A stretch of DNA of 64,000 bases, from NCBI GenBank assembly GCA_029261055.1, contig JAJDCA010000037.1, positions 10,291-74,290 on the forward strand, written 5' to 3'. The stretch's first letter is position 1. Every line of letters begins with the position of its first letter. A program made the position numbers and the translations under genes. Under the pieces are notes generated by a model. It did no database searches. It was not told where the DNA came from and saw only the letters and a program-made list of their open reading frames with translations. The stretch is from Candidatus Omnitrophota bacterium (GTDB lineage Bacteria; Omnitrophota; Gorgyraeia; Zapsychrales; Zapsychraceae). Below are positions 1,570 through 61,629 of the stretch, one piece after another.

Positions 1570-1623
1570 TAATATCATTAATTACTATTCTGTATTAATC
1601 AATGGTTGAAGGGCAAAACTCTA

Positions 1624-17404: not shown

Positions 17405-17659
17405 GTGAAAAAATATGAACTAAAAAAGAATAGCGTCACATTTGCAGAATGGGATGGCAAAATATGTTGTCATGAAGAGAGTAATCTTTCGTGGGCTGCT
17501 ATTGTTAATAACCATCATGATAAGGTTTATATATCAGAAGAACTTATAGACGATTTATCAAAGGCTCTTGAGAGGCACAGAAGATTTAGGGTATTAAATG
17601 GAGTTATTGCGTTTAGTCAGGAGATAAAAAAGGGTGACAATGGTGATAAAGTCGACTAG
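17405..17659 (+). CDS. hypothetical small protein
   Basis: ORF track. Confidence 0.4.
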   Translation: MKKYELKKNSVTFAEWDGKICCHEESNLSWAAIVNNHHDKVYISEELIDDLSKALERHRRFRVLNGVIAFSQEIKKGDNGDKVD

Positions 17660-18185
17660 CTGGGATTATGTTTGGATGAATATCGCCGAAACTATAGCAG
17701 AAATGAAATCTAAAGATCCCGAAATAAAGGTTGGGTCCGTATTGGTGAGCGATGATAATAAACAGATGTCTGTTGGGTTTAATGGATTTGCTAAAAACAT
17801 CAAAGAAACAGAAGAAAGATGGAGCAACGACAGCAAAAAAGACCTCGTAATTCATGCTGAAGAGAATGCTTTGCATAATGCAAATACAGATGTGAGCGGA
17901 TGGACAATTTATATAACGCTATTTCCATGCACCAGATGTGCTAATATTATAATAAACAATGGAATTAAGCGGGTAGTTTATTTAAATGATTACAAAAAGG
18001 AAAGCAGTTGGAATCAGAAAAGAGAACTAACACTAGAGTTGTTAAAAGAGGCGGGGGTAAAGATAGAGAAGCTGAGCGAATTAGAGGATTCAGTGAAAAA
18101 GTCAATAGTCTCAACCAGCAAGAAATCTCAAAATTTGTTTATGAGAATATTGATGAATTTATTAACATTTGGAAACCGTCCATAG
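17634..18185 (+). CDS. dCMP deaminase
   Basis: GFNGFAKN (GYNG-like), HAEENAL zinc-binding, PCTRCANII (PCxxC); C-terminal ~30 aa overlap next ORF. Confidence 0.8.
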   Translation: MTMVIKSTSWDYVWMNIAETIAEMKSKDPEIKVGSVLVSDDNKQMSVGFNGFAKNIKETEERWSNDSKKDLVIHAEENALHNANTDVSGWTIYITLFPCTRCANIIINNGIKRVVYLNDYKKESSWNQKRELTLELLKEAGVKIEKLSELEDSVKKSIVSTSKKSQNLFMRILMNLLTFGNRP

Positions 18186-18703
18186 AGAAAATTCATAATA
18201 AGTATTGCAAATTTAATAGAATAATAGATCTTAGTGACCTAGAACAAGAGTCTGTTGTTATTGCTCTAGAATGTCTTGGTAGATTTGACCCTCTTAAGAT
18301 AAAGAAGGGAACTAATTATTCTAAATTGACTAACTTTGTTATAACGTCTATTCATTTTAAACTTTTATCATATATTTATCATAATAGATTTTCAATTCAT
18401 ATTCCGGCAGGTTCTTCCAGGGGGTTGACCGAAACCATAAAGCAAAAGTATAGTCCCACAGCATCCGGCTTGAATAACGTTGCATCAAATAGTATTGACC
18501 TAGATAGTATTATATACTCACAAGAGTTAGTTGATAAGATAGCATTGTTTGATAAAGATGGTATTTTTACATTGCATTATTTTTATGGGTTTACACAAAA
18601 TGAAATTGCTAGTGCATTAAATTTAACCAGACAAACAGTTTATTGTAGATTATCAATTATTAAAAATAAAATCAAAAACAGAATAAAAAACACAATGGAG
18701 TAA
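18008..18703 (+). CDS. putative sigma-factor-like transcription regulator
   Basis: Region-2-like ESVVIALECLGRFDP and C-terminal HTH NEIASALNLTRQTVYCRLSIIK; 178-nt overlap with deaminase makes the true start uncertain. Confidence 0.4.
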   Translation: MESEKRTNTRVVKRGGGKDREAERIRGFSEKVNSLNQQEISKFVYENIDEFINIWKPSIEKIHNKYCKFNRIIDLSDLEQESVVIALECLGRFDPLKIKKGTNYSKLTNFVITSIHFKLLSYIYHNRFSIHIPAGSSRGLTETIKQKYSPTASGLNNVASNSIDLDSIIYSQELVDKIALFDKDGIFTLHYFYGFTQNEIASALNLTRQTVYCRLSIIKNKIKNRIKNTME

Positions 18704-27764: not shown

Positions 27765-27838
27765 TCGCTCTTAGTGTAGTGGCAGCACCAGAAATTCTAA
27801 ACTTCTTAGTCAGGGTTCGATTCCCTGGGGGCGATCCA
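27765..27838 (+). tRNA. suppressor-type tRNA, anticodon CUA (amber), CCA encoded
   Basis: Acceptor TCGCTCT/GGGGCGA, D stem GTGT/GCAC, anticodon arm AGAAA-TTCTAAA-CTTCT (U33, A37), T arm CAGGG-TTCGATT-CCCTG, TCCA. Confidence 0.6.
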
Positions 27839-29174: not shown

Positions 29175-29379
29175 AAAATTAAAGAGCTTTGAGCTGACTG
29201 CCAGTGGATCTACACACACTCAGGTTAATTTGGTTTTTAACGCTAAAAACAAAGAAGAAGCTGAAAAATTAGTAGATGAAATTCTATCTAATGGACATTT
29301 CAACGGTAAAAAACTAGAATATAGTTTTGATTACACAAATTTCGAAGACATAGATGTAGTGGAGGTTGAAAATGAATGA
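29164..29379 (+). CDS. hypothetical small protein
   Basis: ORF track. Confidence 0.4.
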   Translation: MSDKKLKSFELTASGSTHTQVNLVFNAKNKEEAEKLVDEILSNGHFNGKKLEYSFDYTNFEDIDVVEVENE

Positions 29380-29992
29380 ATGGCGCAAATATCCAAAAAC
29401 TACTAGGTTATCAAAATGTAGAATGAGAATAACTGAAAAGCTCGACGGAACAAACGCTGCAATTGAAATTATAGAAAAGCTTGATGGACCCAATATTGTT
29501 TTATCATATTCTCGCAATAGGCAACTTGGTGAGCCTAAACCCTATACTACAGTACTTGAAGATGGTTCTGAAAAAACATACATGTCTAAAGAGTATGAGC
29601 ATTTTGGATTTAGAGAATGGGTAAAAGAAAACGCTAAAAGATTATCGGAGCTATTGCCGGTTGGTATTCATTATGGAGAATGGTGTGGTCCTGGAATACA
29701 AAAAAATCCTTTAGGGTTGCCTAGCAAGAGGTTTTTTCTATTTAATGGATACCCCAAGGACACGGAAGTAGAAAAGGCACAGGGTATAGGGCTATTTGAA
29801 GTACCAACGTTATATATTGGTAAATTTTCTATAGAAAAAATAGAAGAGGTTCACAATGACCTACTATCAAATGGCACCAAGGTGTTTAATTCAATTGAAC
29901 CAAAGTCACCAGAGGGAATAATCATTAACGCATTTGGTACAAGATTCAAGAAAACAGAATTAGATTTACCAAAGGGTCTTATTGATGAATAG
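29372..29992 (+). CDS. ATP-dependent RNA/DNA ligase-family nucleotidyltransferase (RNA-ligase-like)
   Basis: Motif I EKLDGTN (KxDG), motif III-like HYGEWCG, motif IV PEGIIINAFG, motif V RFKKT. Confidence 0.5.
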   Translation: MNEWRKYPKTTRLSKCRMRITEKLDGTNAAIEIIEKLDGPNIVLSYSRNRQLGEPKPYTTVLEDGSEKTYMSKEYEHFGFREWVKENAKRLSELLPVGIHYGEWCGPGIQKNPLGLPSKRFFLFNGYPKDTEVEKAQGIGLFEVPTLYIGKFSIEKIEEVHNDLLSNGTKVFNSIEPKSPEGIIINAFGTRFKKTELDLPKGLIDE

Positions 29993-30551
29993 CAACCAAG
30001 AAGAAACATTTGATAAAATGTTTAGTGATGGATACTTTGTAGTTTATGAAGCAGATAGTGGTGAGGTGATTTGTCGCAAAACACAAATTAAAGGAAAAGA
30101 CACCACTACATACTATAAGATCATCAAGACCGATGGAACAATATGTAATAAAAAAGAACAAATGATAGAGGATATATTTGGACCATTTAACGAAAACGAA
30201 GATAAAAAATACTTTGATGAATGGAACAATAATGAGATAGAAAGAGGAAGCATTGTTCATGTTTTCAATGATCCGTTTCGTCCAGAGGTAATAGTTCGTT
30301 TTTGTTTTGAAGACGAGTATCGCAGATATGCTTTTGAAATGTATTCTAGAAGAAGCAATATGTTTGAACATGTTGACACCACTCCAAGGGTTATTGTTAA
30401 CGAAAACGAATTAAAAAGATGGTCAAAATATTTATCAGAGTCATCATTCAAACCATTATTCGATATGAACTTGCCATCACTAACTAAAGTAGTATTTAAA
30501 GAAATAGATACCATTGATCGTTGTGCCGTATGGAGAACTGATGAACAATAA
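29982..30551 (+). CDS. hypothetical protein
   Basis: ORF track. Confidence 0.5.
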   Translation: MMNSNQEETFDKMFSDGYFVVYEADSGEVICRKTQIKGKDTTTYYKIIKTDGTICNKKEQMIEDIFGPFNENEDKKYFDEWNNNEIERGSIVHVFNDPFRPEVIVRFCFEDEYRRYAFEMYSRRSNMFEHVDTTPRVIVNENELKRWSKYLSESSFKPLFDMNLPSLTKVVFKEIDTIDRCAVWRTDEQ

Positions 30552-30739: not shown

Positions 30740-32197
30740 ATGTTGTTTACGGAAAAAAAAGCTAAATTGGCTCTAAAAAAGGTCTTTGGCTATGATGAAT
30801 TTAGACCTGGACAGTTAGAAGCGATTATGGACTTGTCAAGCGGTAAAGATGTTCAGGTTATTTTTCCTACATCACACGGCAAGTCTATTTGTTATCAAAT
30901 TCCCGCCATATGCTCCAAAGGCACTGCGCTAGTTGTGTCTCCACTAATTTCATTGATGAAGGATCAGGTTGATGCACTACTTGAAAAGGGCGTAGATGCG
31001 GCATTTCTAAATAGCACACTCTCACCTAAACGACAAACTGAAGTTATGGACATGTTGAAGAATGATGAGCTTAAAATATTATATATAACTCCAGAAAGAT
31101 TCAAGTCGTCATCCTTTAAAACCACACTGATTGATTCAAATATAAGCATTTTTGCAGTTGACGAATGCCACGCCATAAGCGCCTGGGGTCATGATTTTAG
31201 ACCAGATTATAGACGATTGGGGTCTGTCAAGGAAGCATTAGACGTGCCAACCATTGCGTTAACAGCAACGGCAACCACTGTTGTTCAGGACGATATTGAA
31301 ACACAACTAAAAATGCAAAATGTTTCAAAGTATATTCATGGATTCGATAGACCAAATCTAGAATACAGTATAGAACTATTCTCCGATCAATTTCTAAAAG
31401 AAACCGCCATTAAAAAACACATCATAAAGATAGCAAAAGAGGGTGGAGACCCAGCAATTTTTTATTGTGGCACAAGGAAGCAGACAGATCGTATCGTCCA
31501 GATTGTTAAAAGTATCAAGGGTCTAAAAATACCGTCAATTGCAAAATATCATGGAGCAATGAAAGACAAGGACAGAGAAAAGGTACAGGGCGACTTCATG
31601 AGTGGCAAAACACCATGGATTGCTGCGACTAATGCATTCGGTATGGGGATCGACAAAGCTAATGTCAGGAATATAATTCATGTATCGGTCCCTGGGTCGG
31701 TAGAGGCGTGGTATCAAGAGGTTGGACGTGCAGGTCGTGATGGTAAGGATTCTCGGTGCAATCTTTTCTACTGTCAGCGTGATTTAGGTTTGCAGTGGTT
31801 CTTTATTAATATAGCAAATCCATCAAAATATGTTTTTGAAAATGTTTGGGATCTTTTATGGTCATATGGTGATTCTGTTGTGCAAATGACACAGAAGAAA
31901 TTTTATGATGATTATAAGATTAGATGTGGTAGTTCAGATTCGTCTGGCTGTATCAGTACTGCTGTTCGTGTTTTGAAAAAGTCAGGTGCCATAGATCCGA
32001 ATTCTAGTAGAGGCCAAATGGTTTTAATGGATTATCCTAATCGTAGACCAGTAGAACTGTATTTAGATTTTGATAAATTGGAAGAAAAAGAAAAAATGGA
32101 TAGGGACAGATTTGGTAGAATGCTCAATTTTATCAATGGGTATGGCTCTATTCGAAATAGGGTATTGAGATACTTTGGAGAAAGTACTAATGAGTAA
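30740..32197 (+). CDS. recQ: RecQ-family DNA helicase
   Basis: FRPGQLEAI, Walker A PTSHGKSICYQIP, VVSPLISLMKDQV, DECH box VDECHAISAWGHDFRP, motif VI QEVGRAGRDG. Confidence 0.85.
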   Translation: MLFTEKKAKLALKKVFGYDEFRPGQLEAIMDLSSGKDVQVIFPTSHGKSICYQIPAICSKGTALVVSPLISLMKDQVDALLEKGVDAAFLNSTLSPKRQTEVMDMLKNDELKILYITPERFKSSSFKTTLIDSNISIFAVDECHAISAWGHDFRPDYRRLGSVKEALDVPTIALTATATTVVQDDIETQLKMQNVSKYIHGFDRPNLEYSIELFSDQFLKETAIKKHIIKIAKEGGDPAIFYCGTRKQTDRIVQIVKSIKGLKIPSIAKYHGAMKDKDREKVQGDFMSGKTPWIAATNAFGMGIDKANVRNIIHVSVPGSVEAWYQEVGRAGRDGKDSRCNLFYCQRDLGLQWFFINIANPSKYVFENVWDLLWSYGDSVVQMTQKKFYDDYKIRCGSSDSSGCISTAVRVLKKSGAIDPNSSRGQMVLMDYPNRRPVELYLDFDKLEEKEKMDRDRFGRMLNFINGYGSIRNRVLRYFGESTNE

Positions 32198-34785: not shown

Positions 34786-34853
34786 TGTAGGTTAATACTG
34801 GTAACTAACTTATGACTATTAATAAAAATCATTATACAAAACACCAATAATAC

Positions 34854-34861
34854 TGTATAAT
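34854..34861 (+). promoter_or_regulatory. extended -10 element TGTATAAT
   Basis: TGTATAAT 7 nt upstream of the GAGG that opens element B. Confidence 0.45.
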
Positions 34862-34868
34862 ATATACA

Positions 34869-34938
34869 GAGGCCACGATTCGCGCTTCCTTCTAATATTT
34901 AATTTTTGGTTTAAAAACTAGCGCAATCAATTTCCTCT
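34869..34938 (+). ncRNA. CUUCCUUCUAA-motif structured element, copy B
   Basis: GAGG-CCACGATTC-GCGC-TTCCTTCTAA...GCGC-AATCAATTT-CCTC with nested helices GAGG/CCTC, GATT/AATC, GCGC/GCGC. Confidence 0.35.
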
Positions 34939-34962
34939 AATTCAAATAAAAAAAATAAGCAT

Positions 34963-35067
34963 AGGCTACAAGGCTAGCTTCCTTCTAATCGGTTTCCAAG
35001 CGGATGGTTGTGGGTTCGACTCCCACCTATAGTTTTGTCTATAGTAGCTCAATGGTAGAGTATCCGC
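34963..35067 (+). tRNA. tRNA-Gly(UCC)-like gene with 3' half upstream of 5' half, embedded in motif copy C
   Basis: The 5' motif part AGGCTACAAGGCTAGC-TTCCTTCTAA is at 34963-34992. The 3' half TTTCCAA-GCGGA-TGGTT-GTGGG-TTCGACT-CCCAC-CTATAG is at 34993-35032. After TTTTG comes the 5' half TCTATAG-TA-GCTC-AATGGTA-GAGT-A-TCCGC at 35038-35067. The halves form a complete cloverleaf. Confidence 0.35.
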
Positions 35068-35112
35068 CCTAAAAGTTTCCTTAATATCCTGTGTATTAAA
35101 TACTAAACGATA

Positions 35113-35186
35113 AGGCTATGTAAGTAGCTTCCTTCTAACTAATCAATCTTAGACGTTGAATCAAACTAGCTACCGCAATCTCCTTT
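35113..35186 (+). ncRNA. CUUCCUUCUAA-motif structured element, copy D
   Basis: AGGCTATGTAA-GTAGC-TTCCTTCTAA...GCTAC-CGCAATCTCCTTT. Confidence 0.3.
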
Positions 35187-35203
35187 TTAAGAAAGTTAAT
35201 ATA

Positions 35204-37306
35204 ATGAAGCAAAAAATTGCACTCAAGTACTCCAGCTCCATATTTATCAGCAACAATGACTCTAGTGATCACAATAACGCTATCTTGGTTGCTTCAATTA
35301 ATTCTGAATTGATGCAAAATGGGTTTATGCTAAGTCAAGATTCTAGCACTAAATTAGGTATGCTTAGTGATGTTGAACTTACTGACATATATAAAGACAT
35401 TGTTACTGAAGTCCGTATCCTCGTTGGTAACGATGTAGACTATCAACCAATGTACCCAAACTTTCCCGAACAGGTAATGAATGCTTCTGCATCAGAGCTT
35501 TTTCTTAATGCTATCACCCACTACTGGACACATGGCGAATGGAGTCCTAGCTATGAAAAATTACCTCGTGAAATAAGTTTTGAGAATGTTAATTTTAAAG
35601 AGATAAACTTAATTCATGATGTGGAATTTAATAAAATTTTCGAAACAATACTATCTTCGAATGATTCTATTTCTGACTTTGACAGAGAGACCATTGCGTG
35701 GTTTGTTGACACTCATAAGCAATGCAATTATGAAAACTTAAAAATTCCATTTAAAGAAAATATGTGCTTTCTTGCTGGATTACTTGCTGCAAACAATGAA
35801 GACATATCAAAACTACCACAAACGGCAACAGATGTTCTTAGGATTGCCACTGTGTTTTCTGGTGGAGATATATCATTAGCAGAAAATACTAAATTTAAAT
35901 CATTGCCACGAAAATTGCGTCGAATGTTAGTTTCTGCTTTAGAAAACGTGGCAAATTTAGATGATCTTATGCGACATAGAGGTAAATGGATTCGTCTGTT
36001 TCATAATCTACATATAAGTGAATTGACCAAATCGGCAAACTTGCTTGATATGGTGGAATTGATTAGAAGTGGCAAAAATATTGAAACATTTAATAGTAAG
36101 GTTGAGTTAACTATAGCGAACAAAGATCCGTTAGCCGCTATAGCTCTTTTAAAGACTCGCCCAGGGGATTTTGCTCGTCGCATCAGTTGTGTTTTGGGAC
36201 TAAAAGTTCCTGGACGTAGAACAGTTGTAGAAGAGTTTTTAAAAGTTGCTAATCAGGTATCAACGCGAGTTTTGCTTCAATTGATGGGCAGTTTAAAAAT
36301 TCGTGGAAATTCTACAACCGATAAAAGGGTAATATTTCCCAAGGGTAGTATTCAGAAGGCACAAATTGTCAATACAGAATTACCTAAGCTTGGCATAAGA
36401 GCAACGTTGGCTTTAACCAATGGTGTGAAGGAAGTACTGACTGAGAGATTTTCTAGCCTGGATAATCTTGGATGTGTCTACATTGATCCAGATCTTAAAA
36501 AATGTCCACTGCCATCTCAGCAGCGCAGTGCTTCAGAAGGTTTAATACAGGTTGCAAGAGGTACACATCTGCCAATCGGAGATGATAAAAATACATTAAG
36601 ATTTTTTGTATACTGGATAGGGCAAGATATAGATTTAAGTGCTACATTTCATGATGAAAATTTTAGAACTATTGGAAATGTTTCATATAGGAATCTACAA
36701 AATAAACTATTTGGATCATATCATAGTGGAGACAAGACCAAAGCTCCAAATGGCGAATGTGAATTTATTGACGTAAATATTGACGATGCCGTTAAATCTG
36801 GTACAAGATATGTGGTTATGAATGTGTTAGTGTATAGTGGTCCAAAATTCTCTGAGCACGAAAAATGTTATGTTGGATGGATGACTCGTTCTCAACCCAA
36901 TAGTAATGAGATATTTGACGCTAAGACAGTAGATCAAAAGATTGACCTAGCTTCAGAATGCCTAAACTCTATTCCAGTCGTGTTTGATTTAGTAGAAAGA
37001 AAGGCAATATGGACAGACTTATCAACCTCCAAAAATGTTCAGTGGGGTGGCAATAATGTAGAATCCAATAGGGCTACCATCGAGGACAAGTTGGAAGCTA
37101 TTACTAGCTTAAACAATAAGACTAATTTGTTTGAGCTATTTGAACTACATGCAATGGCTAGATCTACTGCTATTGTAGATGATCCCGAAAATGCAGAGAT
37201 GATATTTTCTGTAGAAAATTGTGGTGACATTACGCCAAGTAACATCATGTTAATAAATTCTGAATATTTGACCGATAGTACAGCAACAAAGAAAGAAAAT
37301 GTATAA
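35204..37306 (+). CDS. large hypothetical protein (700 aa)
   Basis: ORF track. ATG 35204 preferred because TTG 35156 lies inside element D. No recognised motif. Confidence 0.5.
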   Translation: MKQKIALKYSSSIFISNNDSSDHNNAILVASINSELMQNGFMLSQDSSTKLGMLSDVELTDIYKDIVTEVRILVGNDVDYQPMYPNFPEQVMNASASELFLNAITHYWTHGEWSPSYEKLPREISFENVNFKEINLIHDVEFNKIFETILSSNDSISDFDRETIAWFVDTHKQCNYENLKIPFKENMCFLAGLLAANNEDISKLPQTATDVLRIATVFSGGDISLAENTKFKSLPRKLRRMLVSALENVANLDDLMRHRGKWIRLFHNLHISELTKSANLLDMVELIRSGKNIETFNSKVELTIANKDPLAAIALLKTRPGDFARRISCVLGLKVPGRRTVVEEFLKVANQVSTRVLLQLMGSLKIRGNSTTDKRVIFPKGSIQKAQIVNTELPKLGIRATLALTNGVKEVLTERFSSLDNLGCVYIDPDLKKCPLPSQQRSASEGLIQVARGTHLPIGDDKNTLRFFVYWIGQDIDLSATFHDENFRTIGNVSYRNLQNKLFGSYHSGDKTKAPNGECEFIDVNIDDAVKSGTRYVVMNVLVYSGPKFSEHEKCYVGWMTRSQPNSNEIFDAKTVDQKIDLASECLNSIPVVFDLVERKAIWTDLSTSKNVQWGGNNVESNRATIEDKLEAITSLNNKTNLFELFELHAMARSTAIVDDPENAEMIFSVENCGDITPSNIMLINSEYLTDSTATKKENV

Positions 37307-37308: not shown

Positions 37309-38052
37309 ATGCATAGCCCTGAACAAGATAATCAAGAAGAAAATATAATAGAGGTATTACAAGATGTGGCTGATTCCGTAATAGCTGCACCTAACAAAAA
37401 TGCATCTGAAGCACAGATTGCTATTACAGGTAATGAAACTGAAAATGAATCTCTAATCTTATCTCCGAATCTAATGTTAGATATGGTTGATATAGAAACA
37501 GACCTGGATAGACTAACTGTCAATTGTACAGATGTAAAAGATGACGAAATTGATGAAATTAAACGACAACTACATGCAAATATGGTTCTTTTGGACAAAT
37601 CCGCATTAGGATTATCTGCAATACAGATTGGCATTCCAAAAAGAGCTTTTGTGATTAAGGTGATCAACAAAGATAGACCAATGCGCCGCAAACTATCATT
37701 TGATGAAAAATATAATTTAATATATTTTATTAATCCAGAGATTATATTTTCGCAATACCCTCGTCATATGGTTGAATCATGTCTTAGTATCCCTCGTGAA
37801 AAATTTCGTGTTGAAAGATGCTCTCGGGTTAGGATTACAGATGATCTAAATGGTGAACAAATGTTTAAAAATAAACTAGCGCATGTTGTACAGCATGAAT
37901 TTGATCATACTCGTGGAATTACACTGTACCAGTCTGGTAATCAAGAAATCGTACAAGTAGATGACAATGCTAGGGTAGATATTGGTTTCCTTAGCGAACG
38001 TGAAAGACAATCTTTATTTGAGACAACTGGGAGGTTGGATTATGGGACTTAA
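37309..38052 (+). CDS. def: peptide deformylase with ~75-aa acidic N-terminal extension
   Basis: Motif I GLSAIQIG, motif II ESCLSIP (EGCLS), motif III QHEFDHTRG (HExxH). Confidence 0.8.
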   Translation: MHSPEQDNQEENIIEVLQDVADSVIAAPNKNASEAQIAITGNETENESLILSPNLMLDMVDIETDLDRLTVNCTDVKDDEIDEIKRQLHANMVLLDKSALGLSAIQIGIPKRAFVIKVINKDRPMRRKLSFDEKYNLIYFINPEIIFSQYPRHMVESCLSIPREKFRVERCSRVRITDDLNGEQMFKNKLAHVVQHEFDHTRGITLYQSGNQEIVQVDDNARVDIGFLSERERQSLFETTGRLDYGT

Positions 38053-38314
38053 ACAAGAATACATTGGAAACATTCAGCCATTATGCTTGGCTGCATTGGC
38101 GGAAAAGTGGAACACTGTAGATAGTATTGTCAAGTCAATGGACGATATATTAGATGGCGCTGCTTCTGATTCTGGAATCGCCGCATCTCAAGCACATTTT
38201 GATTTTTTAGATGCTCATGCTAGAATTGAAACATCTCGCAGAACACGCAATAAGGAGTCACTATGCACTGCTGCTGCACAAGCGGCAGATATACTGGACC
38301 CCGCTCAGCCTTAA
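38042..38314 (+). CDS. hypothetical protein
   Basis: ATG 38042 with RBS GGGAGGTTGGATT; the track ORF from 37982 overlaps the def 3' end. Confidence 0.45.
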   Translation: MGLKQEYIGNIQPLCLAALAEKWNTVDSIVKSMDDILDGAASDSGIAASQAHFDFLDAHARIETSRRTRNKESLCTAAAQAADILDPAQP

Positions 38315-38326: not shown

Positions 38327-38397
38327 GGCTCTGTAGTTTAATGGTAAAACAGCCGATTCTAACTCGGTATTTGCAGGTTCAAATCCTGTCGGAGTCT
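38327..38397 (+). tRNA. second suppressor-type tRNA, anticodon CUA
   Basis: Acceptor GGCTCTG/CGGAGTC, D arm GTTT-AATGGTA-AAAC, anticodon arm GCCGA-TTCTAAC-TCGGT, T arm GCAGG-TTCAAAT-CCTGT. Confidence 0.6.
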
Positions 38398-38479: not shown

Positions 38480-38767
38480 GTGTTAGTTAGACTGGACTTA
38501 ACCAGATCTCAACAAACTGTCCAAGCTGCTCATGCAGCAATTGAGGCAGCTCGCCAATTACCCATCCATGAAACACATCCCCATTTAGTAATATGTGGTA
38601 TAGATGATCTATATTCACTAGAAAAGGCGCTAGGTTGTCTTGAGTTTAAGGGACTGTCGTGTTTTAAATTTTATGAACCAGATATCAATAATGAATTAAC
38701 GGCTATTGCTGTAGGTCTATTGAGAGGCAAGGCATGTCGCCCACTCTCTAAGTATAAACTGCTTTAA
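38480..38767 (+). CDS. PTH2-family peptidyl-tRNA hydrolase
   Basis: QTVQAAHAAIEAA (GKxAAQCxHAA block), HLVICGIDDLYSLEKALG, TAIAVGLLRG; GTG start. Confidence 0.55.
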   Translation: MLVRLDLTRSQQTVQAAHAAIEAARQLPIHETHPHLVICGIDDLYSLEKALGCLEFKGLSCFKFYEPDINNELTAIAVGLLRGKACRPLSKYKLL

Positions 38768-39280: not shown

Positions 39281-39772
39281 TTGTCAAGGCAGAAGTATTA
39301 TGGAAGAAAAAAAACCCATAGATTAGTTATTATATTTTCTATGGTAGTATTATTGATTGGTCTTGTCTCTTCTTACTACGGGACAAGACCAATAATTATA
39401 CAGGGATTAAGTATGTTTCCATCTATATCTCATAAAGATAGATTTATATCTATTGAGAATTTCAATATAAATAGATTTGACATTGTATCTGTAGTTGTAA
39501 ACAATGAAAACCTATGCAAGAGAGTAATTGGCTTGCCTAAAGATGTAATTCAATTTACTAAAAATAATATTATAATAAATAATGAACTTATGACAGAATA
39601 TTATGTTCTTGATATTTCAGATTACGAGATTGGCAAATCATACACTCTTAAAGACGATGAGTATTTTGTAATGGGTGATAATCGCAATAATTCTCATGAC
39701 TCTAGAGCATTTGGACCTATTAAAAAAATTCAGATAAAGTCAAAAATACTTCATAGGGTTTGGAGACAGTAA
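39281..39772 (+). CDS. lepB: signal peptidase I (S26 family)
   Basis: Basic N-region plus TM, Ser box GLSMFPSIS, Lys box CKRVIGLPKD, box E VMGDNRNNSHDSRAFGPI; TTG start with RBS TAAGGACGG. Confidence 0.75.
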   Translation: MSRQKYYGRKKTHRLVIIFSMVVLLIGLVSSYYGTRPIIIQGLSMFPSISHKDRFISIENFNINRFDIVSVVVNNENLCKRVIGLPKDVIQFTKNNIIINNELMTEYYVLDISDYEIGKSYTLKDDEYFVMGDNRNNSHDSRAFGPIKKIQIKSKILHRVWRQ

Positions 39773-40734
39773 TGAAAAAACCATTATTATCAATAATTGT
39801 ACCTTGTGCTCCAAATCGAACACAGCGTGTTAAGACAATCATATCTAGATTAAGTTTAAATAAAGGATTGCATCCAGAAATCCCATTTGAATTAATAATT
39901 GTTGATGGTGGATCTACAGATGAATTAAAAGAAATATGCATGGCTGCAAGAGTACATCTAGACATAAAGTATATATATTTACCACTGTATCAATTTATCA
40001 ATCCGTCCTACCCTCGAAATGTTGGATTTAGAATTGCAGAGGGCGATATATTTACTATGCTAGATGCGGACTATTGGGTTGGAGAAGATTTTATAGTTGG
40101 TGCTACCAAGCCCTTTTTAAATGGTGACAGGGATATTATTAACAATGGTTATGTTATTGACACGTCTGAGAACAATAGAGGTGGCCAACGTGTTGCAGAG
40201 CATATAAATAGCTGTTTATTAGATTCAGTAAATTTAAAGAAAACAATATTGAGTCTTTATGATGTGTGCAATATACCTAAACCATGTGAACCAAAGCATA
40301 TTTGGCTGTGGTCAGCACCAAGACAAAATTATTTTAAGATGAATGGGTATGATGAAAAATATGTTTTAGGTGGCTGGTGTAGAGAGGACGATGATTTTTT
40401 CTATCGTACAATGGAGACAGGACTCAAAAGACATAAAAATGAATATGATAAATTTTGCTGTTTGCATATGTGGCACGAACAGGGTGTAAGGTCTAACGCC
40501 AATGTTAATCGTGAATATTATAGTAAAGTACTACCTAGTAACTTTATTAGAAATATAAATCACCAGTGGGGAAAAATGTTAGCAGGCTCATACTGTGATA
40601 TTGGTGGCACAGCACTTGACCATTACGAAACAGAAGAATGGATTGAAACAAATCAATCGGATGTTGTGTCTTATAAAAATGAAAAGCCATGGAAGTCAAT
40701 AGAAGAACTTAAGCAAAGTATAGAAAAGAGCTGA
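39772..40734 (+). CDS. GT2-family glycosyltransferase
   Basis: LSIIVPCAPNRTQRV..., LIIVDGGSTD, TMLDADYW (DxD-like). Confidence 0.65.
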   Translation: MKKPLLSIIVPCAPNRTQRVKTIISRLSLNKGLHPEIPFELIIVDGGSTDELKEICMAARVHLDIKYIYLPLYQFINPSYPRNVGFRIAEGDIFTMLDADYWVGEDFIVGATKPFLNGDRDIINNGYVIDTSENNRGGQRVAEHINSCLLDSVNLKKTILSLYDVCNIPKPCEPKHIWLWSAPRQNYFKMNGYDEKYVLGGWCREDDDFFYRTMETGLKRHKNEYDKFCCLHMWHEQGVRSNANVNREYYSKVLPSNFIRNINHQWGKMLAGSYCDIGGTALDHYETEEWIETNQSDVVSYKNEKPWKSIEELKQSIEKS

Positions 40735-40735
40735 G

Positions 40736-41125
40736 ATGAAGACAATAATAGCCGGAGGACGTAAAATACATGATAAAAAACTGTTGTGGGATATTGTAAA
40801 AGATATTGATTTTGACATAACAGAAATAGTGTCTGGTTGTGCAAATGGTGTTGATACAATGGGTGAAAAATATGCTAAATGGGCTAACATACCTGTTAAG
40901 CAATTTCCTGCCGATTGGGGAAACCTAGACTTGCCTGGTGCTCGTATTAAAGAAAATGAATATGGCAAATACAATGCTACTGCTGGACTTTTCAGAAATG
41001 ATGAAATGGCAAGGTATGCAGGTGCATTAATATTAATTTGGGATGGAGAGAGTTCTGGCAGTAGAAATATGCTAGAATTGGCTGAAGAATATGGTTTAGT
41101 TATTTTAGAAAAAGTAATACAGTAA
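40736..41125 (+). CDS. DUF2493/SLOG-family Rossmann protein
   Basis: IIAGGRKIHD...IVSGCANGVDTMGEKYAKWANIPVKQFPADWGN...AGLFRNDEM...IWDGESSGSRNMLELAEEYGL. Confidence 0.5.
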   Translation: MKTIIAGGRKIHDKKLLWDIVKDIDFDITEIVSGCANGVDTMGEKYAKWANIPVKQFPADWGNLDLPGARIKENEYGKYNATAGLFRNDEMARYAGALILIWDGESSGSRNMLELAEEYGLVILEKVIQ

Positions 41126-41140
41126 AATAAGGATTTTAAG

Positions 41141-41569
41141 ATGCAGGGGTTTCCACAAGATAATGTATTGGGTCAAACAGGTGTTGATCAAGATAATATT
41201 ACTCCAGAAATGCTACAGCAAAAAGCTGTAATGGATGAAAGAAACAGGATCATAAATAAGTTTATGACTGGTGTTCAGTCCGTTGGTATGGTTGACGCTA
41301 CAACTAATCGCGGTATTTTAAATGGTTTATTAGCTGACAATATTGACATAATTGTTGGATGTGCAACTTTTAAAAATATATCTAAGAGAATATCGAGTGC
41401 CAGAGACATTGGTTTAGATAGTATAATTGTATCCTGTGAAGAAATTGAAGAGATTGAGTACCAAATGAAGGGCAACGAAATAAGTTCTGGATCGTGGATA
41501 TCTGTACTCACAACATTGCAGTACGGAGTAATACGCAAAGATAATGGTGAGGTTATAGTTCTGTGGTAA
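41141..41569 (+). CDS. hypothetical protein
   Basis: ORF track. Confidence 0.45.
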   Translation: MQGFPQDNVLGQTGVDQDNITPEMLQQKAVMDERNRIINKFMTGVQSVGMVDATTNRGILNGLLADNIDIIVGCATFKNISKRISSARDIGLDSIIVSCEEIEEIEYQMKGNEISSGSWISVLTTLQYGVIRKDNGEVIVLW

Positions 41570-42036
41570 ATTTTAAAAAAAAGCCAAAATCTGATTGTAA
41601 CACTATAGGTATTTGTGCAGGTTGCTTCACTATTCTTACACCCAATCATGTCAAGTATTTGGAAGAGGCAAGGGATGCATGTGATTATTTAATAGTCATA
41701 ACTAATTCGGATAAGTATATACTTGATAAAAAGGGCATTGTTCCCATATCTTGTGAAGGTAGAATGCAGATATTATCAGGATTAAAATCCGTTGATGAAG
41801 TATCTAGCTTTGAAGAAGAGGATGAGCATGACTGGATTGACAGATTTAAAAGAACTAGATTGTCTGAGTTTGCAGAAAATGCCAAGACAGTAGTGTTTCA
41901 TGATCAGTGTGCTATGTTTAATAAATTTCCAGATGATATTCCAGGATTTGGAGTGGCAGACATTGTAACTATGATTAGTCGTAAGGCTGGAGTGGCTGTT
42001 TCAGATATTTTTAGAAAGATTAAAAATGAAAAATAA
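41563..42036 (+). CDS. hldE: D-glycero-beta-D-manno-heptose-1-phosphate adenylyltransferase (HldE domain II-like), HxGH replaced by TPNH
   Basis: GICAGCFTILTPNHVKYLEEAR, LIVITNSD (VNSD block), R..ILSGLKSVDEVSSFEEEDEHD. Confidence 0.65.
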   Translation: MVNFKKKPKSDCNTIGICAGCFTILTPNHVKYLEEARDACDYLIVITNSDKYILDKKGIVPISCEGRMQILSGLKSVDEVSSFEEEDEHDWIDRFKRTRLSEFAENAKTVVFHDQCAMFNKFPDDIPGFGVADIVTMISRKAGVAVSDIFRKIKNEK

Positions 42037-42967
42037 TATACTCGTAATAGGTGATGCGATGTTAGATTCTCATGTAATGGGTCATACTGATCGCATATCA
42101 CCAGAAGCACCTGTACCAGTTGTTAGTGATGTCGAGAAGATTTGCAAGCTTGGCGGTGCTGCTAATGTGGCTGCACAAGTATCAGTTTATGCTGACAATA
42201 CAGTAATGATGTATAAAATAACATCTGGCGATCCTTTAGAACACAATGAAATGTGCAAATTGCTGAAGGAGAAAAATATTTATTTCCTTCCCATGTCACT
42301 TCCAAGAAGTAGTAAAACTATGATACCTGTAAAAGAAAGAGTTTGGGTTGGTAAACAGCAGATTTGTCGCATAGACAGAGAAAATACAGACCGCCCAACG
42401 CTTAAGGAATCAGCACAGTGGATAGAGGATATAAAAACTACTATTAAAGAATACGGCATTACTAAGGTAATATTTTCGGACTATGACAAGGGTACATTAA
42501 CGGACGGAATTATAGAGAGCATAGCTCGTTACTGCAACAGTCGTCAAATAATTACAGTACTAGACCCCAAAAGACCCACGTTCTCCGGTATTAAATTTTT
42601 ATCCGCCGTAAAGTGCAACGAAAAGGAATTACAATCAACCGGACTCAATAATATTGATGAATTATCCTCTAGTATGGCCGGAGTACGCATTATTCAAACT
42701 CGCGGGAATAAGTCAACCAAGGTTAGTTTATCCTCTATGCTTGGACTACAAAGCAGTGTAGTAGATGTCACTGAGTCAGACGTTGTTGACACATGCGGAT
42801 GTGGAGATATTCATATCGCAATACTAACACTTATGTTTGATGGAACTAATATTTTGTCAGCGGTTAGGTGTGCAAACAGTGCAGCATCATTGTCGGCCAA
42901 GCATCTTGGTTGTTACACACTATCTAAAGAGGAGATCGAAAGTTGCATACAAAGCCACACTTCTTAG
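42026..42967 (+). CDS. hldE: D-glycero-beta-D-manno-heptose-7-phosphate kinase (HldE domain I / RfaE-like)
   Basis: ILVIGDAMLD, RISPEAPVPVV, GGAANVA, VIFSDYDKG, DTCGCGD. Confidence 0.8.
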   Translation: MKNNILVIGDAMLDSHVMGHTDRISPEAPVPVVSDVEKICKLGGAANVAAQVSVYADNTVMMYKITSGDPLEHNEMCKLLKEKNIYFLPMSLPRSSKTMIPVKERVWVGKQQICRIDRENTDRPTLKESAQWIEDIKTTIKEYGITKVIFSDYDKGTLTDGIIESIARYCNSRQIITVLDPKRPTFSGIKFLSAVKCNEKELQSTGLNNIDELSSSMAGVRIIQTRGNKSTKVSLSSMLGLQSSVVDVTESDVVDTCGCGDIHIAILTLMFDGTNILSAVRCANSAASLSAKHLGCYTLSKEEIESCIQSHTS

Positions 42968-43920
42968 TAACTGGTGGATTAGGATTTATTGGATCTGCAC
43001 TAGTTGATAGATTAGAAAGAGATTATCCAAGTGTAGGTATTTTGATAATTGATAATCTTACACACTCTAGTTCTACAAAGGGAGATGAGTTTACAAATAG
43101 AGTTTTTGCACGTAGCTTAAGTCATAATGTTTTTTGTGATTTCTCAGATTACTTGCTGGAGTCATATAATGTGCAATGTGTATTTCATTTGGCAGCACTG
43201 AGCAACACTTCAACAGAATCCATGGCAGACTTATTTGAGCAAAACGTCAAGGCTACTGAACTGCTGGTTAAGTCAGCAGTTAAAAATAATATACCTATGG
43301 TGTATGCATCTTCTGCTAGCGTTTATGGTAATGAAAAAGTACCAATGGAGGAAGACCAAGATTTATTTCCTATAAGTAATTACGGTATTTCAAAAATGTT
43401 GTCTGATTTGACAGTCGATAAATATATGGATGTTGGAAATAGTATTGCTGGTTTAAGAATTTTTAACTGTTATGGACCAGGAGAAGATCACAAGCAGTAC
43501 ACCAACTCATGTTCTCCAATGCTGACATTCTATAATTCACTATCTAGTGGGAGTGGAGTCAGTCTATTTAACGACAGTAAACAATATTTTCGTGACTTTA
43601 TATATATAGATGATGTTGTAGAAGCTATTGTGTGTTCATATAGACAAGGACTAGATGGAATCTTTAATGTTGGCTCAGGAGAGTGTCATAGTTTTTATGA
43701 TATTGCTAAGCTTATTGCAGAAGAATTAGGTATAATGAATATAGACGATCTTATTACGTGGAAGTCAATGAGTGACGAGATGTATAATAGATATCAGGCA
43801 CATACGCTTTCATGCAACGAAAATTCTCCATTTAATTTTCTTTATAAAGATGTTAGAACTGGTGTAAAGAAATACATTGAATATTTAAAGAGTAGGAACA
43901 ATGGACAAAAAGCTTACTGA
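42943..43920 (+). CDS. hldD: ADP-L-glycero-D-manno-heptose-6-epimerase (HldD/RfaD)
   Basis: FLVTGGLGFIGS, YASSASVYG, SNYGISK (YxxxK), RIFNCYGPGEDHK, RDFIYIDDV, GIFNVGSG, RYQAHT. Confidence 0.75.
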   Translation: MHTKPHFLVTGGLGFIGSALVDRLERDYPSVGILIIDNLTHSSSTKGDEFTNRVFARSLSHNVFCDFSDYLLESYNVQCVFHLAALSNTSTESMADLFEQNVKATELLVKSAVKNNIPMVYASSASVYGNEKVPMEEDQDLFPISNYGISKMLSDLTVDKYMDVGNSIAGLRIFNCYGPGEDHKQYTNSCSPMLTFYNSLSSGSGVSLFNDSKQYFRDFIYIDDVVEAIVCSYRQGLDGIFNVGSGECHSFYDIAKLIAEELGIMNIDDLITWKSMSDEMYNRYQAHTLSCNENSPFNFLYKDVRTGVKKYIEYLKSRNNGQKAY

Positions 43921-44867: not shown

Positions 44868-45242
44868 ATGCTGGAGCAATTTAATGCAGTATTTTATGAA
44901 GTACTGCCAGTCATATTGGCTATACTGGTCCCTTCGGTGTTTTTTGTAGTTAGGATTATTATTAAAAAACTAACGAATAAACTAGATGCAGAAACTCAGT
45001 CAAATATACATTCTATTGTTATGGATGTTGTTCAGCAGGGAGTTGATTATGCTGACAAATGGGCAGAAGATCAGAAGCGTAAAACGGATAATAAGCCATA
45101 TGGCAGTTTAAAGAGTAAAGAGGCGACCGCCTACATATTAGATGAATTAAAAGAGAGGGGTATAACTGATATAGCACGAGACTCTCTATTGCGTAAGATA
45201 GAGTCTAAACTTGGATCTGAAAAGAAAATTATAAAGGACTAG
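44868..45242 (+). CDS. N-terminally anchored membrane protein
   Basis: RBS AAGGAGGAGTAA; single TM VLPVILAILVPSVFFVV. Confidence 0.5.
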   Translation: MLEQFNAVFYEVLPVILAILVPSVFFVVRIIIKKLTNKLDAETQSNIHSIVMDVVQQGVDYADKWAEDQKRKTDNKPYGSLKSKEATAYILDELKERGITDIARDSLLRKIESKLGSEKKIIKD

Positions 45243-48112: not shown

Positions 48113-48670
48113 ATGAATAATAGTAAAATAAACGGTGTTAAAACTTGTCCAGTACACAAAACATACAAGGGTCGCAAACCAACCAAAAGAAACTGTCCAG
48201 ATTGTAAAAAACTTTACGAAACTCTTCAAGCAAAAAGTAGAGAGACAAAACCATTTAGATCATTATTTTCATCAGATTTTAACGTTAGTATGTTTCATAT
48301 GCTATCAGAACTTGCCTGCTATCAAAGGTTTGGAAAATTACCACCTTATTTCTGGAGAAAAGCCACACCATGTAGTCAAAAGGCCAAAGATCATTATCAA
48401 AAAACATACAAAATGCTTATGTCTTGGCAAAAAAAGAAATTTCCAGCTAAAAATAATAAATGGAATCCACTAGAGGCGCTAAATACTGTATTTTATTATC
48501 TATCAACAAATGATAGAGATATAGATGATTTTGCAAGAAGAAATGTCACAGTAATAAAAGAAATTAAGACAAGGGAAAAACATACACCCGAAGAGGCAAT
48601 TGATTTTGGGTCTACGAAAAGAAAGAGCAGATTTAAAGGGCTAAACAATCTTGGAGATGATAATGGCTAA
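48113..48670 (+). CDS. hypothetical basic protein
   Basis: ORF track; the alternative-frame ORF 48135..48473 is rejected. Confidence 0.45.
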   Translation: MNNSKINGVKTCPVHKTYKGRKPTKRNCPDCKKLYETLQAKSRETKPFRSLFSSDFNVSMFHMLSELACYQRFGKLPPYFWRKATPCSQKAKDHYQKTYKMLMSWQKKKFPAKNNKWNPLEALNTVFYYLSTNDRDIDDFARRNVTVIKEIKTREKHTPEEAIDFGSTKRKSRFKGLNNLGDDNG

Positions 48671-61351: not shown

Positions 61352-61603
61352 ATGCTTAATGATACACTTAAAGCTGCAAATAGCAAATTTGCAGAATTTC
61401 CAGCCCTTTCATTATCGAATGATACACTTCGCACAAAGACAGATTATATGGACCAGTCCGTATTAATAAATTTAAACTCTATAGAAAGCATTGATAAGAG
61501 TAGCAACAATAGTTGCAGAATTACTGTTGACAGTGGAAGGGTTTGGGATATTGCACTGTCTCAAGAGGAAGTTATTAATCTTGTGCTAACATTTAATAAT
61601 TAA
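61352..61603 (+). CDS. hypothetical protein
   Basis: RBS TTAAGGAATAGACC. Confidence 0.45.
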   Translation: MLNDTLKAANSKFAEFPALSLSNDTLRTKTDYMDQSVLINLNSIESIDKSSNNSCRITVDSGRVWDIALSQEEVINLVLTFNN

Positions 61604-61629
61604 ATCATAATCAGATAATAAGGGTGTCA

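What the first reader, a model, noticed from the sequence alone, without database searches (positions are those of the whole stretch)
27765..27838. Two phage tRNAs with CUA (amber-reading) anticodons
tRNA 27765-27838 (loop UUCUAAA, encoded CCA) and tRNA 38327-38397 (loop UUCUAAC) both fold into good cloverleaves with C34-U35-A36. Genes in this window still use TAG as a stop (for example the ORFs ending at 3756, 5434, 10934 and 25562). This is the pattern of large phages that recode TAG only in late genes and carry their own suppressor tRNAs. The second tRNA sits between the peptide deformylase and a PTH2 peptidyl-tRNA hydrolase. Both have U73.
Basis: seen in the sequence. Interest (0 to 1): 0.7.

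Follow-up and report, generated by a model that had tools for sequence, protein, structure and literature searches.

The report
Two amber-suppressor tRNAs in a phage
A roughly 155-kb uncultured phage carries two intact tRNA genes that read the stop codon UAG, a known trick of phages that rewrite UAG in late genes, but the 64 kb available uses UAG as an ordinary stop, so recoding itself is unproven.

Summary
ARAGORN and Rfam both find tRNAs with anticodon CUA at 27765-27838 and 38327-38397, with the loops, U73 and CCA as described. The neighbouring peptide deformylase is confirmed. The PTH2 call holds only at family-profile level.

- The window is standard code: TAG ends 29 of 102 genes, more than TGA.
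- Six TAG-ended genes stop exactly where their orthologues in related phages stop.
- Reading TAG as sense lengthens ORFs no more than reading TGA as sense does.
- Two related phages carry 14-15 tRNAs in the same region but no CUA tRNA, and the start of their opposite-strand arm is intact in standard code.
- The rest of this phage's 154,790-bp contig could not be retrieved, so late-gene recoding is untested.

In favour: the first tRNA shares its scaffold with phage tRNA-Trp(CCA) and with the suppressor tRNA of TAG-recoded crAss-like phages. All 47 viral loci with that signature carry a CUA tRNA, and 33 show strong TAG recoding nearby.

Verdict: a new member of a known kind. The tRNAs are probably functional, probably glutamine-inserting. 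Their purpose in this genome is open.

The parts
27765..27838 (+). tRNA with anticodon CUA (CUA1). It has U1-A72, U73, an encoded CCA, a 4-nt variable loop, loop UUCUAAA and an A31/C39 mismatch. Its scaffold resembles tRNA-Trp and the crAss-type suppressor.
   Evidence: ARAGORN. Rfam tRNA 45.0 bits. INPHARED nearest matches are phage tRNA-Trp(cca) plus one CUA tRNA in a TAG-recoded fragment. Alignment A2.
38327..38397 (+). tRNA with anticodon CUA (CUA2). It has G1-C72, G2-U71, U73, no CCA, a 4-nt variable loop and loop UUCUAAC. Its isotype ancestry is unresolved.
   Evidence: ARAGORN. Rfam tRNA 65.2 bits. The minimum-energy fold is the cloverleaf, z = -2.4. Nearest phage tRNAs are of mixed isotype. 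It occupies the slot held by tRNA-Gly(GCC) in relative L005.
25753..27740 (+). The rest of the tRNA cluster: Met(CAU) 25753-25826, Met(CAU) 26576-26652, Gly(UCC) 26662-26737, Asn(GUU) 26829-26902, Pro(UGG) 27517-27594, and a tRNA with a 65-76-nt insertion at 27604-27740.
37309..38052 (+). Peptide deformylase, upstream of CUA2.
   Evidence: Pfam Pep_deformylase 1.6e-24. Orthologues in L003 and L005.
37982..38314 (+). Small ORF that ends 12 nt before CUA2. Its orthologue in L005 (14705-14995) ends 11 nt before tRNA-Gly(GCC).
38480..38767 (+). Divergent PTH2-family (peptidyl-tRNA hydrolase 2) protein, downstream of CUA2.
   Evidence: No hit for the protein alone. A family profile hits PDB peptidyl-tRNA hydrolases at 4.8e-7. 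42 of 70 family members hit Pfam PTH2. The single-sequence structure model was too poor to use (pLDDT 46.7).
39281..39772 (+). Signal peptidase S26, in the same protein-maturation neighbourhood.
   Evidence: Pfam Peptidase_S26 6.8e-27.

Best explanation
Both genes encode functional amber-suppressor tRNAs. They are transcribed with the early/middle genes of the + strand arm and charged by a host synthetase.

The likeliest amino acid is glutamine. C34-U35 is a main GlnRS determinant, and CUA1 adds a weak U1-A72 first pair on a Trp-type body. That is the same logic as the E. coli tRNA-Trp amber suppressor, which is charged with glutamine, and as the crAss-phage suppressors.

In the infected cell the tRNAs would compete with release factor 1 at UAG. 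Their most likely purpose is to let ribosomes read through in-frame UAG codons in at least some phage genes outside this window. The candidate location is the opposite-strand arm that, in relatives, begins about 20 kb beyond the window.

Shown: tRNA integrity, the anticodon, the scaffold relationship, and the standard-code status of the window. Inferred: aminoacylation, the amino acid inserted, and the existence of any in-frame UAG elsewhere in the genome.
For: - Two independent tools agree on cloverleaf and register.
- All conserved tertiary positions are present.
- The two CUA tRNAs are only about 70% alike, so they are not a fresh duplicate. Relatives have none at those positions. Together this points to gain and retention under selection.
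- CUA1 matches phage tRNA-Trp(cca) genes (24 of the 25 listed hits; 49 records matched in all). The one unannotated hit, in MT836538.1, is a CUA tRNA.
- In MT836538.1 that tRNA lies 15 nt upstream of a terminase gene with 12 in-frame TAG, followed by a portal gene with 8. PHROG E-values are 1e-156 and 6e-119.
- A scan of IMG/VR for this D-arm plus a YTCTAA loop found 47 loci, all with an ARAGORN CUA tRNA. In 33 of them long-ORF coverage rises by at least 0.2 when TAG is read as sense. One contig carries two CUA tRNAs in tandem. Nine of the 13 distinct IMG/VR sequences also begin with U1; the other four are unresolved.
- An amber suppressor derived from tRNA-Trp is charged with glutamine, and weakening the 1-72 pair yields glutamine-inserting suppressors (review PMC9976931).
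- TAG is read as glutamine in crAss-like phages by metaproteomics (abstract of PMC9523058).
- This phage has lower GC (34%) than its relatives (40-42%), the direction Borges et al. link to recoding.
Against: - No in-frame TAG anywhere in 64 kb. Long-ORF coverage is 0.88 in standard code and 0.92 with TAG as sense, against 0.91 with TGA and 0.97 with TAA as sense.
- TAG ends 29 of 102 genes, versus 18 for TGA.
- Six TAG-ended genes align to within a few residues of the ends of orthologues that stop with TAA, TGA or TAG, so active suppression would extend many proteins.
- There is no excess of backup stops after TAG.
- Same-frame gene junctions across TAG (4 of 29) are no more frequent than across TAA (about 9 of 55), and the downstream genes have their own start sites.
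- The holin-like gene is not recoded.
- No release factor or aminoacyl-tRNA synthetase appears among the ORFs of 200 aa or more.
- Relatives show no recoding in the first ~10 kb of the opposite-strand arm.
- Recoding is reported as rare outside gut habitats, 0-0.65% of jumbo phages (PMC13037316).
- U73 matches no known bacterial Gln or Trp identity set.
- CUA1 has a weak, mismatched anticodon stem.
Confidence: 0.45

Rival explanations
1. The tRNAs are functional suppressors in a genome that is standard code throughout. This could be a recent acquisition that precedes any recoding, the stage Borges et al. describe for a standard-code phage that has gained a suppressor. Or the suppressors could serve another role, such as rescuing occasional nonsense mutations or causing read-through of host or early phage UAG stops.
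For: - The whole window is standard code with frequent, conserved TAG terminators.
- Relatives lack CUA tRNAs and look standard-coded where sampled.
- Suppressor tRNAs in standard-code relatives of recoded phages are documented.
- Other large phages carry a CUA tRNA inside a tRNA array whose surroundings look standard-coded: L094, L113, L119 and L126.
- Recoding is rare outside gut habitats.
Against: - No selective benefit is known that would hold two different suppressors in a genome with no UAG to decode.
- Suppression carries a cost for the 28% of genes that end in TAG.
- The CUA1 scaffold is mostly found beside recoded genes.
Confidence: 0.35
2. The tRNAs are decaying or inactive variants. 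Phage tRNA arrays turn over quickly, and these could be sense tRNAs whose anticodons mutated. They might be poorly charged or unused.
For: - tRNA content differs sharply between close relatives: 8 here against 14-15 in the matching region.
- CUA2 sits in a slot that holds tRNA-Gly(GCC) in a relative.
- CUA1 has an A/C mismatch, the lowest-but-one Rfam score in the window, and no spontaneous cloverleaf fold.
- U73 fits no expected identity set.
Against: - Two different tRNAs reaching the same nonsense anticodon by decay is improbable.
- All tertiary-interaction positions are intact.
- CUA2 is one of the best-scoring tRNAs in the window.
- CUA2 is too far from the relative's tRNA-Gly (outside its eight closest of 36, all under 66% identity) to be a simple anticodon mutant.
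Confidence: 0.12
3. They are pyrrolysine tRNAs, as ARAGORN's label suggests.
For: Only the CUA anticodon and ARAGORN's automatic name.
Against: - Both have canonical elongator architecture: a 5-bp anticodon stem, a 7-nt D loop with GG, and a TTC(G/A)A T-loop. This is unlike the compact tRNA-Pyl; that comparison rests on established knowledge, not a tool result.
- No pyl genes appear among the annotated ORFs.
Confidence: 0.01

Closest known systems
Suppressor tRNA(CUA) of TAG-recoded crAss-like phages (for example the unannotated tRNA in GenBank MT836538.1, and 47 IMG/VR loci)
   Same: - Anticodon CUA.
- Near-identical D arm (GTGT-AGTGG(C/T)A-GCAC) and TTCGATT T-loop.
- A first base pair that starts with U1.
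- 78% identity to CUA1 over 61 nt.
- Encoded by a phage whose replication-type genes are in standard code.
   Different: - The crAss-type tRNAs have A73, mostly with U1-G72, and lie directly beside heavily recoded terminase and portal genes.
- CUA1 has U73 and U1-A72, and lies in a region with no recoding.
- The host phages share no detectable proteins with this window.
Phage tRNA-Trp(CCA), and the E. coli tRNA-Trp amber suppressor
   Same: - CUA1 differs from the loop of Streptomyces phage Comrade tRNA-Trp (TTCCAAA) only at position 35.
- It shares that tRNA's D arm and its 4-nt variable loop TAGT.
- The classical E. coli C35-to-U tRNA-Trp suppressor reads UAG and is charged with glutamine (PMC9976931).
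   Different: - Bacterial tRNA-Trp identity uses G73 and, in E. coli, A1-U72. CUA1 has U73 and U1-A72.
- The acceptor stems are unrelated.
- No tRNA-Trp was seen in the relatives' sampled regions, so direct descent is not shown.
Stage-specific stop-codon recoding in large phages (Lak, crAss-like, Garnet, Amethyst, Sapphire, Topaz and others; Borges et al.)
   Same: - A large phage with low GC.
- Suppressor tRNA genes in the standard-code part of the genome.
- Replication genes free of in-frame TAG.
- A tRNA with an internal insertion, which is reported as common in alternatively coded jumbo phages.
   Different: - In-frame TAG has not been observed here.
- TAG is a frequent terminator rather than a depleted one.
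- No RF2 gene was found in the window.
- The lineage's retrievable relatives come from environmental assemblies rather than gut. Its DnaE is closest to that of Patescibacteria among cellular homologues.
Standard-code phage that has acquired a suppressor tRNA (the Agate-clade example in Borges et al.)
   Same: A suppressor is present while the sampled genome reads as standard code, and close relatives lack it.
   Different: That example is a TGA suppressor in a gut phage. Here there are two different TAG suppressors.

Membership tests
Amber (UAG) suppressor tRNA, canonical elongator type | Complete cloverleaf with the conserved tertiary nucleotides | tested here: met
   ARAGORN and Rfam at 45.0 and 65.2 bits against a gathering score of 29. 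U8, A14, G18-G19, G53-C61 and the TTC(G/A)A T-loop are read directly.
Amber (UAG) suppressor tRNA, canonical elongator type | C34-U35-A36 in a 7-nt loop after U33 | tested here: met
   The Rfam alignments place UUCUAAA and UUCUAAC in the loop. ARAGORN gives anticodon cta, with or without the intron option.
Amber (UAG) suppressor tRNA, canonical elongator type | Aminoacylation, and read-through of UAG in vivo | not testable with these tools
   This needs a reporter assay, charged-tRNA detection or proteomics.
Phage with TAG recoded in late genes (code-15-like) | In-frame TAG inside conserved protein-coding genes | tested here: not met
   The test covers the 64-kb window only. Long-ORF coverage is 0.88 against 0.92 with TAG as sense, no better than the TGA control, in every 8-kb slice. 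Orthologue ends coincide. The remaining ~91 kb of the genome could not be read.
Phage with TAG recoded in late genes (code-15-like) | Suppressor tRNA(CUA) encoded in a standard-code region | tested here: met
Phage with TAG recoded in late genes (code-15-like) | TAG rare or absent as a true terminator | tested here: not met
   Stops are TAA 55, TAG 29, TGA 18. Relatives use TAG for 18 of 78 stops. In the recoded fragment MT836538.1, intact ORFs end almost only in TAA or TGA.
Phage with TAG recoded in late genes (code-15-like) | TAG positions align with glutamine in homologues | not testable with these tools
   No in-frame TAG is available in the readable sequence.
Phage with TAG recoded in late genes (code-15-like) | Accessory code-change genes (RF2 or a dedicated synthetase); optional in the family | tested here: not met
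   None among the ORFs of 200 aa or more in the window (orthologue annotations).
tRNA-Trp-derived suppressor | Body of the tRNA resembles tRNA-Trp(CCA), with only position 35 changed in the loop | tested here: met
   Met for CUA1 only. 24 of the 25 listed INPHARED hits are annotated tRNA-Trp (49 records matched in all), at up to 82-84% identity (alignment). CUA2 shows no consistent isotype.
tRNA-Trp-derived suppressor | Bacterial Trp acceptor identity (G73) | tested here: not met
   Both tRNAs have U73. The identity rule is from PMC9976931.
tRNA-Pyl | Compact non-canonical architecture: 6-bp anticodon stem, very short D loop, no GG/TPsiC motifs | tested here: not met
   Both are canonical. The family definition is from established knowledge.
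PTH2 peptidyl-tRNA hydrolase (neighbour gene 38480-38767) | Significant match to the PTH2 family profile or to solved PTH2 structures | tested here: inconclusive
   The protein alone gives no hit. A profile of 70 relatives hits PDB peptidyl-tRNA hydrolases at 4.8e-7 and 1.7e-3, and 42 of 70 relatives hit Pfam PTH2. It is therefore a divergent member by transitive evidence. The structure model was unusable.

The most novel reading that the evidence does not exclude
Read-through itself is the function. In a phage that keeps TAG as the terminator of about 28% of its early and middle genes, and infects a standard-code host, switching on two suppressors would extend the C-termini of many early phage proteins and host proteins. 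That would act as a timed shut-off or remodelling device, rather than a way to decode recoded late genes. A variant of this reading is that the two tRNAs, with unrelated acceptor stems but the same unusual U73, insert two different amino acids at UAG.
Probability: 0.08. Interest if true: 0.7.

Novelty: new member of a known kind. Interest (0 to 1): 0.3.

Why it matters
If the unseen part of this genome carries in-frame TAG, stage-specific amber recoding would extend beyond gut phage clades. It would reach an environmental lineage of ~130-170-kb phages whose DnaE is closest to that of Patescibacteria among cellular homologues. It would also show recoding arising in a genome where TAG is still a common terminator, which does not fit the 'deplete first, then recode' route proposed for gut phages.

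If the genome is standard code throughout, it is a clean case of suppressor acquisition before, or without, recoding.

Either way there is a practical point. Gene callers should test code 15 on the opposite-strand arm of this contig before its late proteins are annotated.

Tried and rejected
**Reaching the rest of this genome.**
- Five exact look-ups of four window proteins found nothing on record (DnaE was tried twice, the second time as P0001).
- P0244, a glycosyltransferase from the same 154,790-bp contig but outside the window, surfaced. It was also not on record, and it found nothing in genome, viral or metagenome contigs.
- Exact and shortened tRNA patterns found nothing in IMG/VR or GTDB genomes.
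- Megablast of 24 kb against INPHARED found nothing.

**In-frame TAG inside the window.**
- The four same-frame junctions are 5434, 6980, 20900 and 34443.
- They are no more frequent than TAA junctions.
- The downstream genes have their own purine-rich start regions.
- The Macro domain upstream of 6980 is complete.
- For 34443, the orthologues end at the same residue.
- I rejected them as read-through candidates.

**Backup-stop signature after TAG.** None was found.

**Descent of CUA2 from the syntenic tRNA-Gly(GCC), or of either tRNA from tRNA-Arg(UCU) by a 1-nt loop shift.**
- CUA2's identity to the syntenic tRNA-Gly(GCC) is below 66%.
- Identity to tRNA-Arg(UCU) is only 72-73%, with unrelated acceptor stems.
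- This remains an idea, not a result.

**Isotype of CUA2.** BLAST against phage tRNAs gave mixed isotypes.

**Family-wide recoding survey.** 57 metagenome loci around the glycosyltransferase gave no tRNAs there and no interrupted opposite-strand genes.

**What the opposite-strand genes are.** PHROGs gave no function for them, so calling that arm 'late/structural' is an inference.

**Other dead ends.**
- The structure prediction of the PTH2-like ORF had pLDDT 46.7, so no fold search was run.
- A literature search for the relatives' sample gave nothing relevant.
- The sigma-70 promoter scan found fewer sites than the shuffled controls.

Full report
**1. Observation**

ARAGORN finds seven tRNAs in the window. 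Two have anticodon cta, at 27765-27838 and 38327-38397 on the + strand. Rfam's tRNA model matches both over its full length, at 45.0 and 65.2 bits against a gathering score of 29. It places UUCUAAA and UUCUAAC in the 7-nt anticodon loop.

Read directly from the sequence:
- CUA1 has U1-A72, U73 and an encoded CCA.
- CUA2 has G1-C72, U73 and no CCA.
- Both have 4-nt variable loops and all the usual tertiary positions.

CUA1 has an AU-rich anticodon stem with an A31/C39 mismatch and does not fold into a cloverleaf on its own. CUA2 does. Neither resembles tRNA-Pyl, so ARAGORN's 'Pyl' label only reflects the anticodon. The two are about 70% identical to each other.

**2. Setting**

The window is one densely packed + strand arm with 34% GC and steadily positive GC skew. 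Genes identified:

| Function | Coordinates |
|---|---|
| rIIA-like protein | 1606-3756 |
| rIIB-like protein | 4075-5031 |
| dCMP deaminase | 17634-18185 |
| Sigma factor | 18008-18703 |
| RecQ-like helicase | 30740-32197 |
| Peptide deformylase | 37309-38052 |
| Signal peptidase S26 | 39281-39772 |
| Sugar-modification cluster | 39760-43920 |
| Holin-like gene | 44868-45242 |
| RecA | 48651-49652 |
| DnaB | 50488-51966 |
| Primase | 51963-52982 |
| DnaE | 56590-60009 |

Identical DnaE, helicase and glycosyltransferase proteins are recorded on a 154,790-bp contig.

Two relatives could be read in part:
- a 168,394-bp scaffold, deposited in a MAG labelled Pacearchaeota (loci L001, L003, L007);
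- a 127,484-bp contig (loci L005, L006, L008).

Gene order is collinear and protein identity is 47-88%. In both relatives the genes flip to the opposite strand about 10 kb past DnaE. That arm holds long proteins of unknown function. I take it as the probable late arm by inference only.

**3. Is TAG recoded?**

Not in the window.
- A non-overlapping gene set covers 89% of the sequence. Stops are TAA 55, TAG 29, TGA 18.
- Six TAG-ended genes align to within a few residues of both C-termini with orthologues that end in TAA, TGA or TAG. TAG is therefore a true terminator, interchangeable with the others.
- Long-ORF coverage goes from 0.88 to 0.92 with TAG as sense. It goes to 0.91 with TGA and 0.97 with TAA as sense. 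No 8-kb slice behaves differently.
- Same-frame gene junctions across TAG (4 of 29) are as common as across TAA (about 9 of 55). The downstream genes have their own start regions.
- There is no enrichment of backup stops after TAG.
- The holin-like gene has no in-frame TAG.

The rest of the genome could not be retrieved by any route. Late-gene recoding in this phage remains untested.

In the relatives, the first ~10 kb of the opposite-strand arm is intact in standard code. The same holds in two or three more distant metagenome relatives.

**4. Origin of the tRNAs**

The relatives carry 14-15 tRNAs around the helicase but no CUA tRNA. The window has eight tRNAs in all.

CUA2 starts 12 nt after ORF 37982-38314. 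In L005 the orthologous ORF is followed, 11 nt later, by tRNA-Gly(GCC), which also has U73, a 4-nt variable loop and no CCA. The sequences are too different to claim descent.

CUA1 follows tRNA-Pro and a tRNA with a long insertion. L003 has Pro followed by Ile(GAU) at that position.

Against 50,697 phage records:
- CUA1 matches 49 records. 24 of the 25 listed are annotated tRNA-Trp(cca) of actinophages, at up to 82-84% identity.
- The one unannotated hit, in MT836538.1, is a CUA tRNA.

CUA1 and Comrade tRNA-Trp share the D arm, the variable loop TAGT and the loop TTC[C/T]AAA.

MT836538.1 is clearly TAG-recoded. Its tRNA sits 15 nt upstream of a terminase gene with 12 in-frame TAG, followed by a portal gene with 8.

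Scanning IMG/VR for this D arm plus a YTCTAA loop gave 47 loci, all with an ARAGORN CUA tRNA. In 33 of them long-ORF coverage rises by at least 0.2 with TAG as sense. These are mostly one low-GC clade, so they are not independent events. One contig has two CUA tRNAs side by side. Nine of the 13 distinct IMG/VR suppressor sequences have U1 with A73 and CCA; the other four are cut short or differ.

CUA2 has no consistent isotype neighbour. Its D arm recurs in a few CUA tRNAs sitting in tRNA arrays of large phages whose surroundings look standard-coded.

**5. Mechanism**

From the identity literature (PMC9976931):
- U35 is central to GlnRS recognition;
- weak 1-72 pairs favour glutamine insertion;
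- bacterial Trp needs G73;
- U73 is the bacterial Gly and Cys discriminator.

CUA1 is therefore best read as a glutamine-inserting suppressor on a Trp-type body. This is inference, not demonstration. CUA2's amino acid is open. The shared U73 is unexplained.

The genes sit among early/middle genes, next to peptide deformylase and a divergent PTH2. That matches the 'code-change genes in standard code' layout of Borges et al..

**6. Weighing**

For late-arm recoding:
- two different suppressors gained and kept;
- a scaffold typical of recoded phages;
- lower GC than the relatives;
- a tRNA with an insertion.

Against:
- TAG is abundant as a stop, contrary to the depletion reported for recoded clades and their relatives and to what the recoded fragment shows;
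- the holin-like gene is not recoded;
- the relatives are standard-coded and lack the suppressors;
- recoding is rare outside gut habitats.

My estimates:

| Reading | Probability |
|---|---|
| At least some genes outside the window need the suppressors | 0.45 |
| Suppressors present in a fully standard-code genome | 0.35 |
| Inactive variants | 0.12 |

**7. Novelty**

Phage-encoded CUA suppressors and stage-specific TAG recoding are well described. This is a new member of that kind, in a little-known environmental lineage. It has two unusual details, frequent TAG terminators and U73 on both tRNAs, and the decisive evidence is missing. Interest is modest.

Noticed in passing
window 34786-35155, especially 35002-35065 (+): A 370-nt gene-free gap holds a match to Rfam YrlA (Y RNA-like): 37.3 bits, E 1.2e-6, below the gathering score of 69. 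Its tRNA-like part is 88% identical to the 3' half of the window's tRNA-Gly(UCC). In relative L005 the gene in the matching position carries TROVE/Ro60 domains. Here the next gene (35156-37306, 716 aa) has no Pfam or PDB hit and matches only PHROG 33734. This may be a phage Ro60/Y-RNA-type module.
   Followed up: partly
window 34884, 34977, 35127 and 25684 (+): The 12-mer GCTTCCTTCTAA occurs three times exactly in the Y-RNA-like gap, and once with one mismatch just upstream of the first tRNA-Met. That is 5 matches against 0.37 expected, and none of 100 shuffles reached 5. Its function is unknown.
   Followed up: partly
window 13484, 25609, 34808 (+): ACTTATGACTA occurs exactly three times, each time inside one of the three largest non-coding gaps. 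It could be a phage-specific promoter or processing signal. With one mismatch allowed, the count is only marginally above chance.
   Followed up: partly
window 27604-27740 (+): This tRNA has perfect acceptor, D and T arms but a 65-76-nt insertion in the anticodon arm. Rfam scores it at 43.9 bits. ARAGORN finds it only with the intron option, and its anticodon call is doubtful. It sits where relative L003 has tRNA-Ile(GAU).
   Followed up: partly
window 25753-25826 (+): A tRNA-Met(CAU) has three G-C pairs at the bottom of a long anticodon stem, an initiator-like feature. ARAGORN finds it, but Rfam does not at its gathering score. The phage also encodes a peptide deformylase.
   Followed up: no
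window 61600-64000 (+, runs off the end): A glycosyltransferase homologue is interrupted by an intein (Hint plus LAGLIDADG domains). The relative's copy aligns only up to the insertion point. Conversely, the relative's DnaE carries an intein that the window's DnaE lacks.
   Followed up: partly
L003 6312-8228 and 15340-16479; L005 999-1286 and 10167-13031: The relatives encode RtcB, a canonical PTH2, a DNA ligase and, in L005, a Ro60-like protein, together with 14-15 tRNAs. The window has no orthologue of RtcB, that PTH2 or the ligase and only eight tRNAs. The RNA-repair and tRNA module turns over quickly in this lineage.
   Followed up: partly
window 44868-45242 (+): A holin-like gene (Pfam Phage_holin_6_1 at 1.1e-5; PHROG holin) lies in the early/middle arm. 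It ends with TAG followed at once by a second in-frame stop.
   Followed up: partly
window 39760-43920 (+): A sugar-nucleotide modification cluster: a family-2 glycosyltransferase, a SLOG/YAcAr protein, a cytidylyltransferase, a PfkB kinase and an NAD-dependent epimerase. More glycosyl- and methyltransferases lie at 18707-24913.
   Followed up: no
L001/L003/L007 (ENA scaffold_14; NCBI GCA_023143585.1): The closest relative is deposited in a MAG named Candidatus Pacearchaeota. Its genes are bacterial-type (DnaE, RecA, DnaB). This looks like a phage contig mis-binned into an archaeal MAG. The cellular DnaE homologues closest to this clade are from Patescibacteria.
   Followed up: no
L068 (GenBank MT836538.1, 13,687 bp): This unannotated 'Bacteriophage sp.' record is a TAG-recoded crAss-like fragment. 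Its terminase and portal genes carry 12 and 8 in-frame TAG, with a CUA tRNA 15 nt upstream of the terminase gene.
   Followed up: yes
window 29366-29992 and 29982-30551 (+): An RNA-ligase-family ORF of 208 aa is followed, with a 1-nt frame shift, by a 189-aa ORF that starts with TTG and has no family match. Together they are about the length of a complete ligase. This could be a split or frameshifted gene.
   Followed up: no
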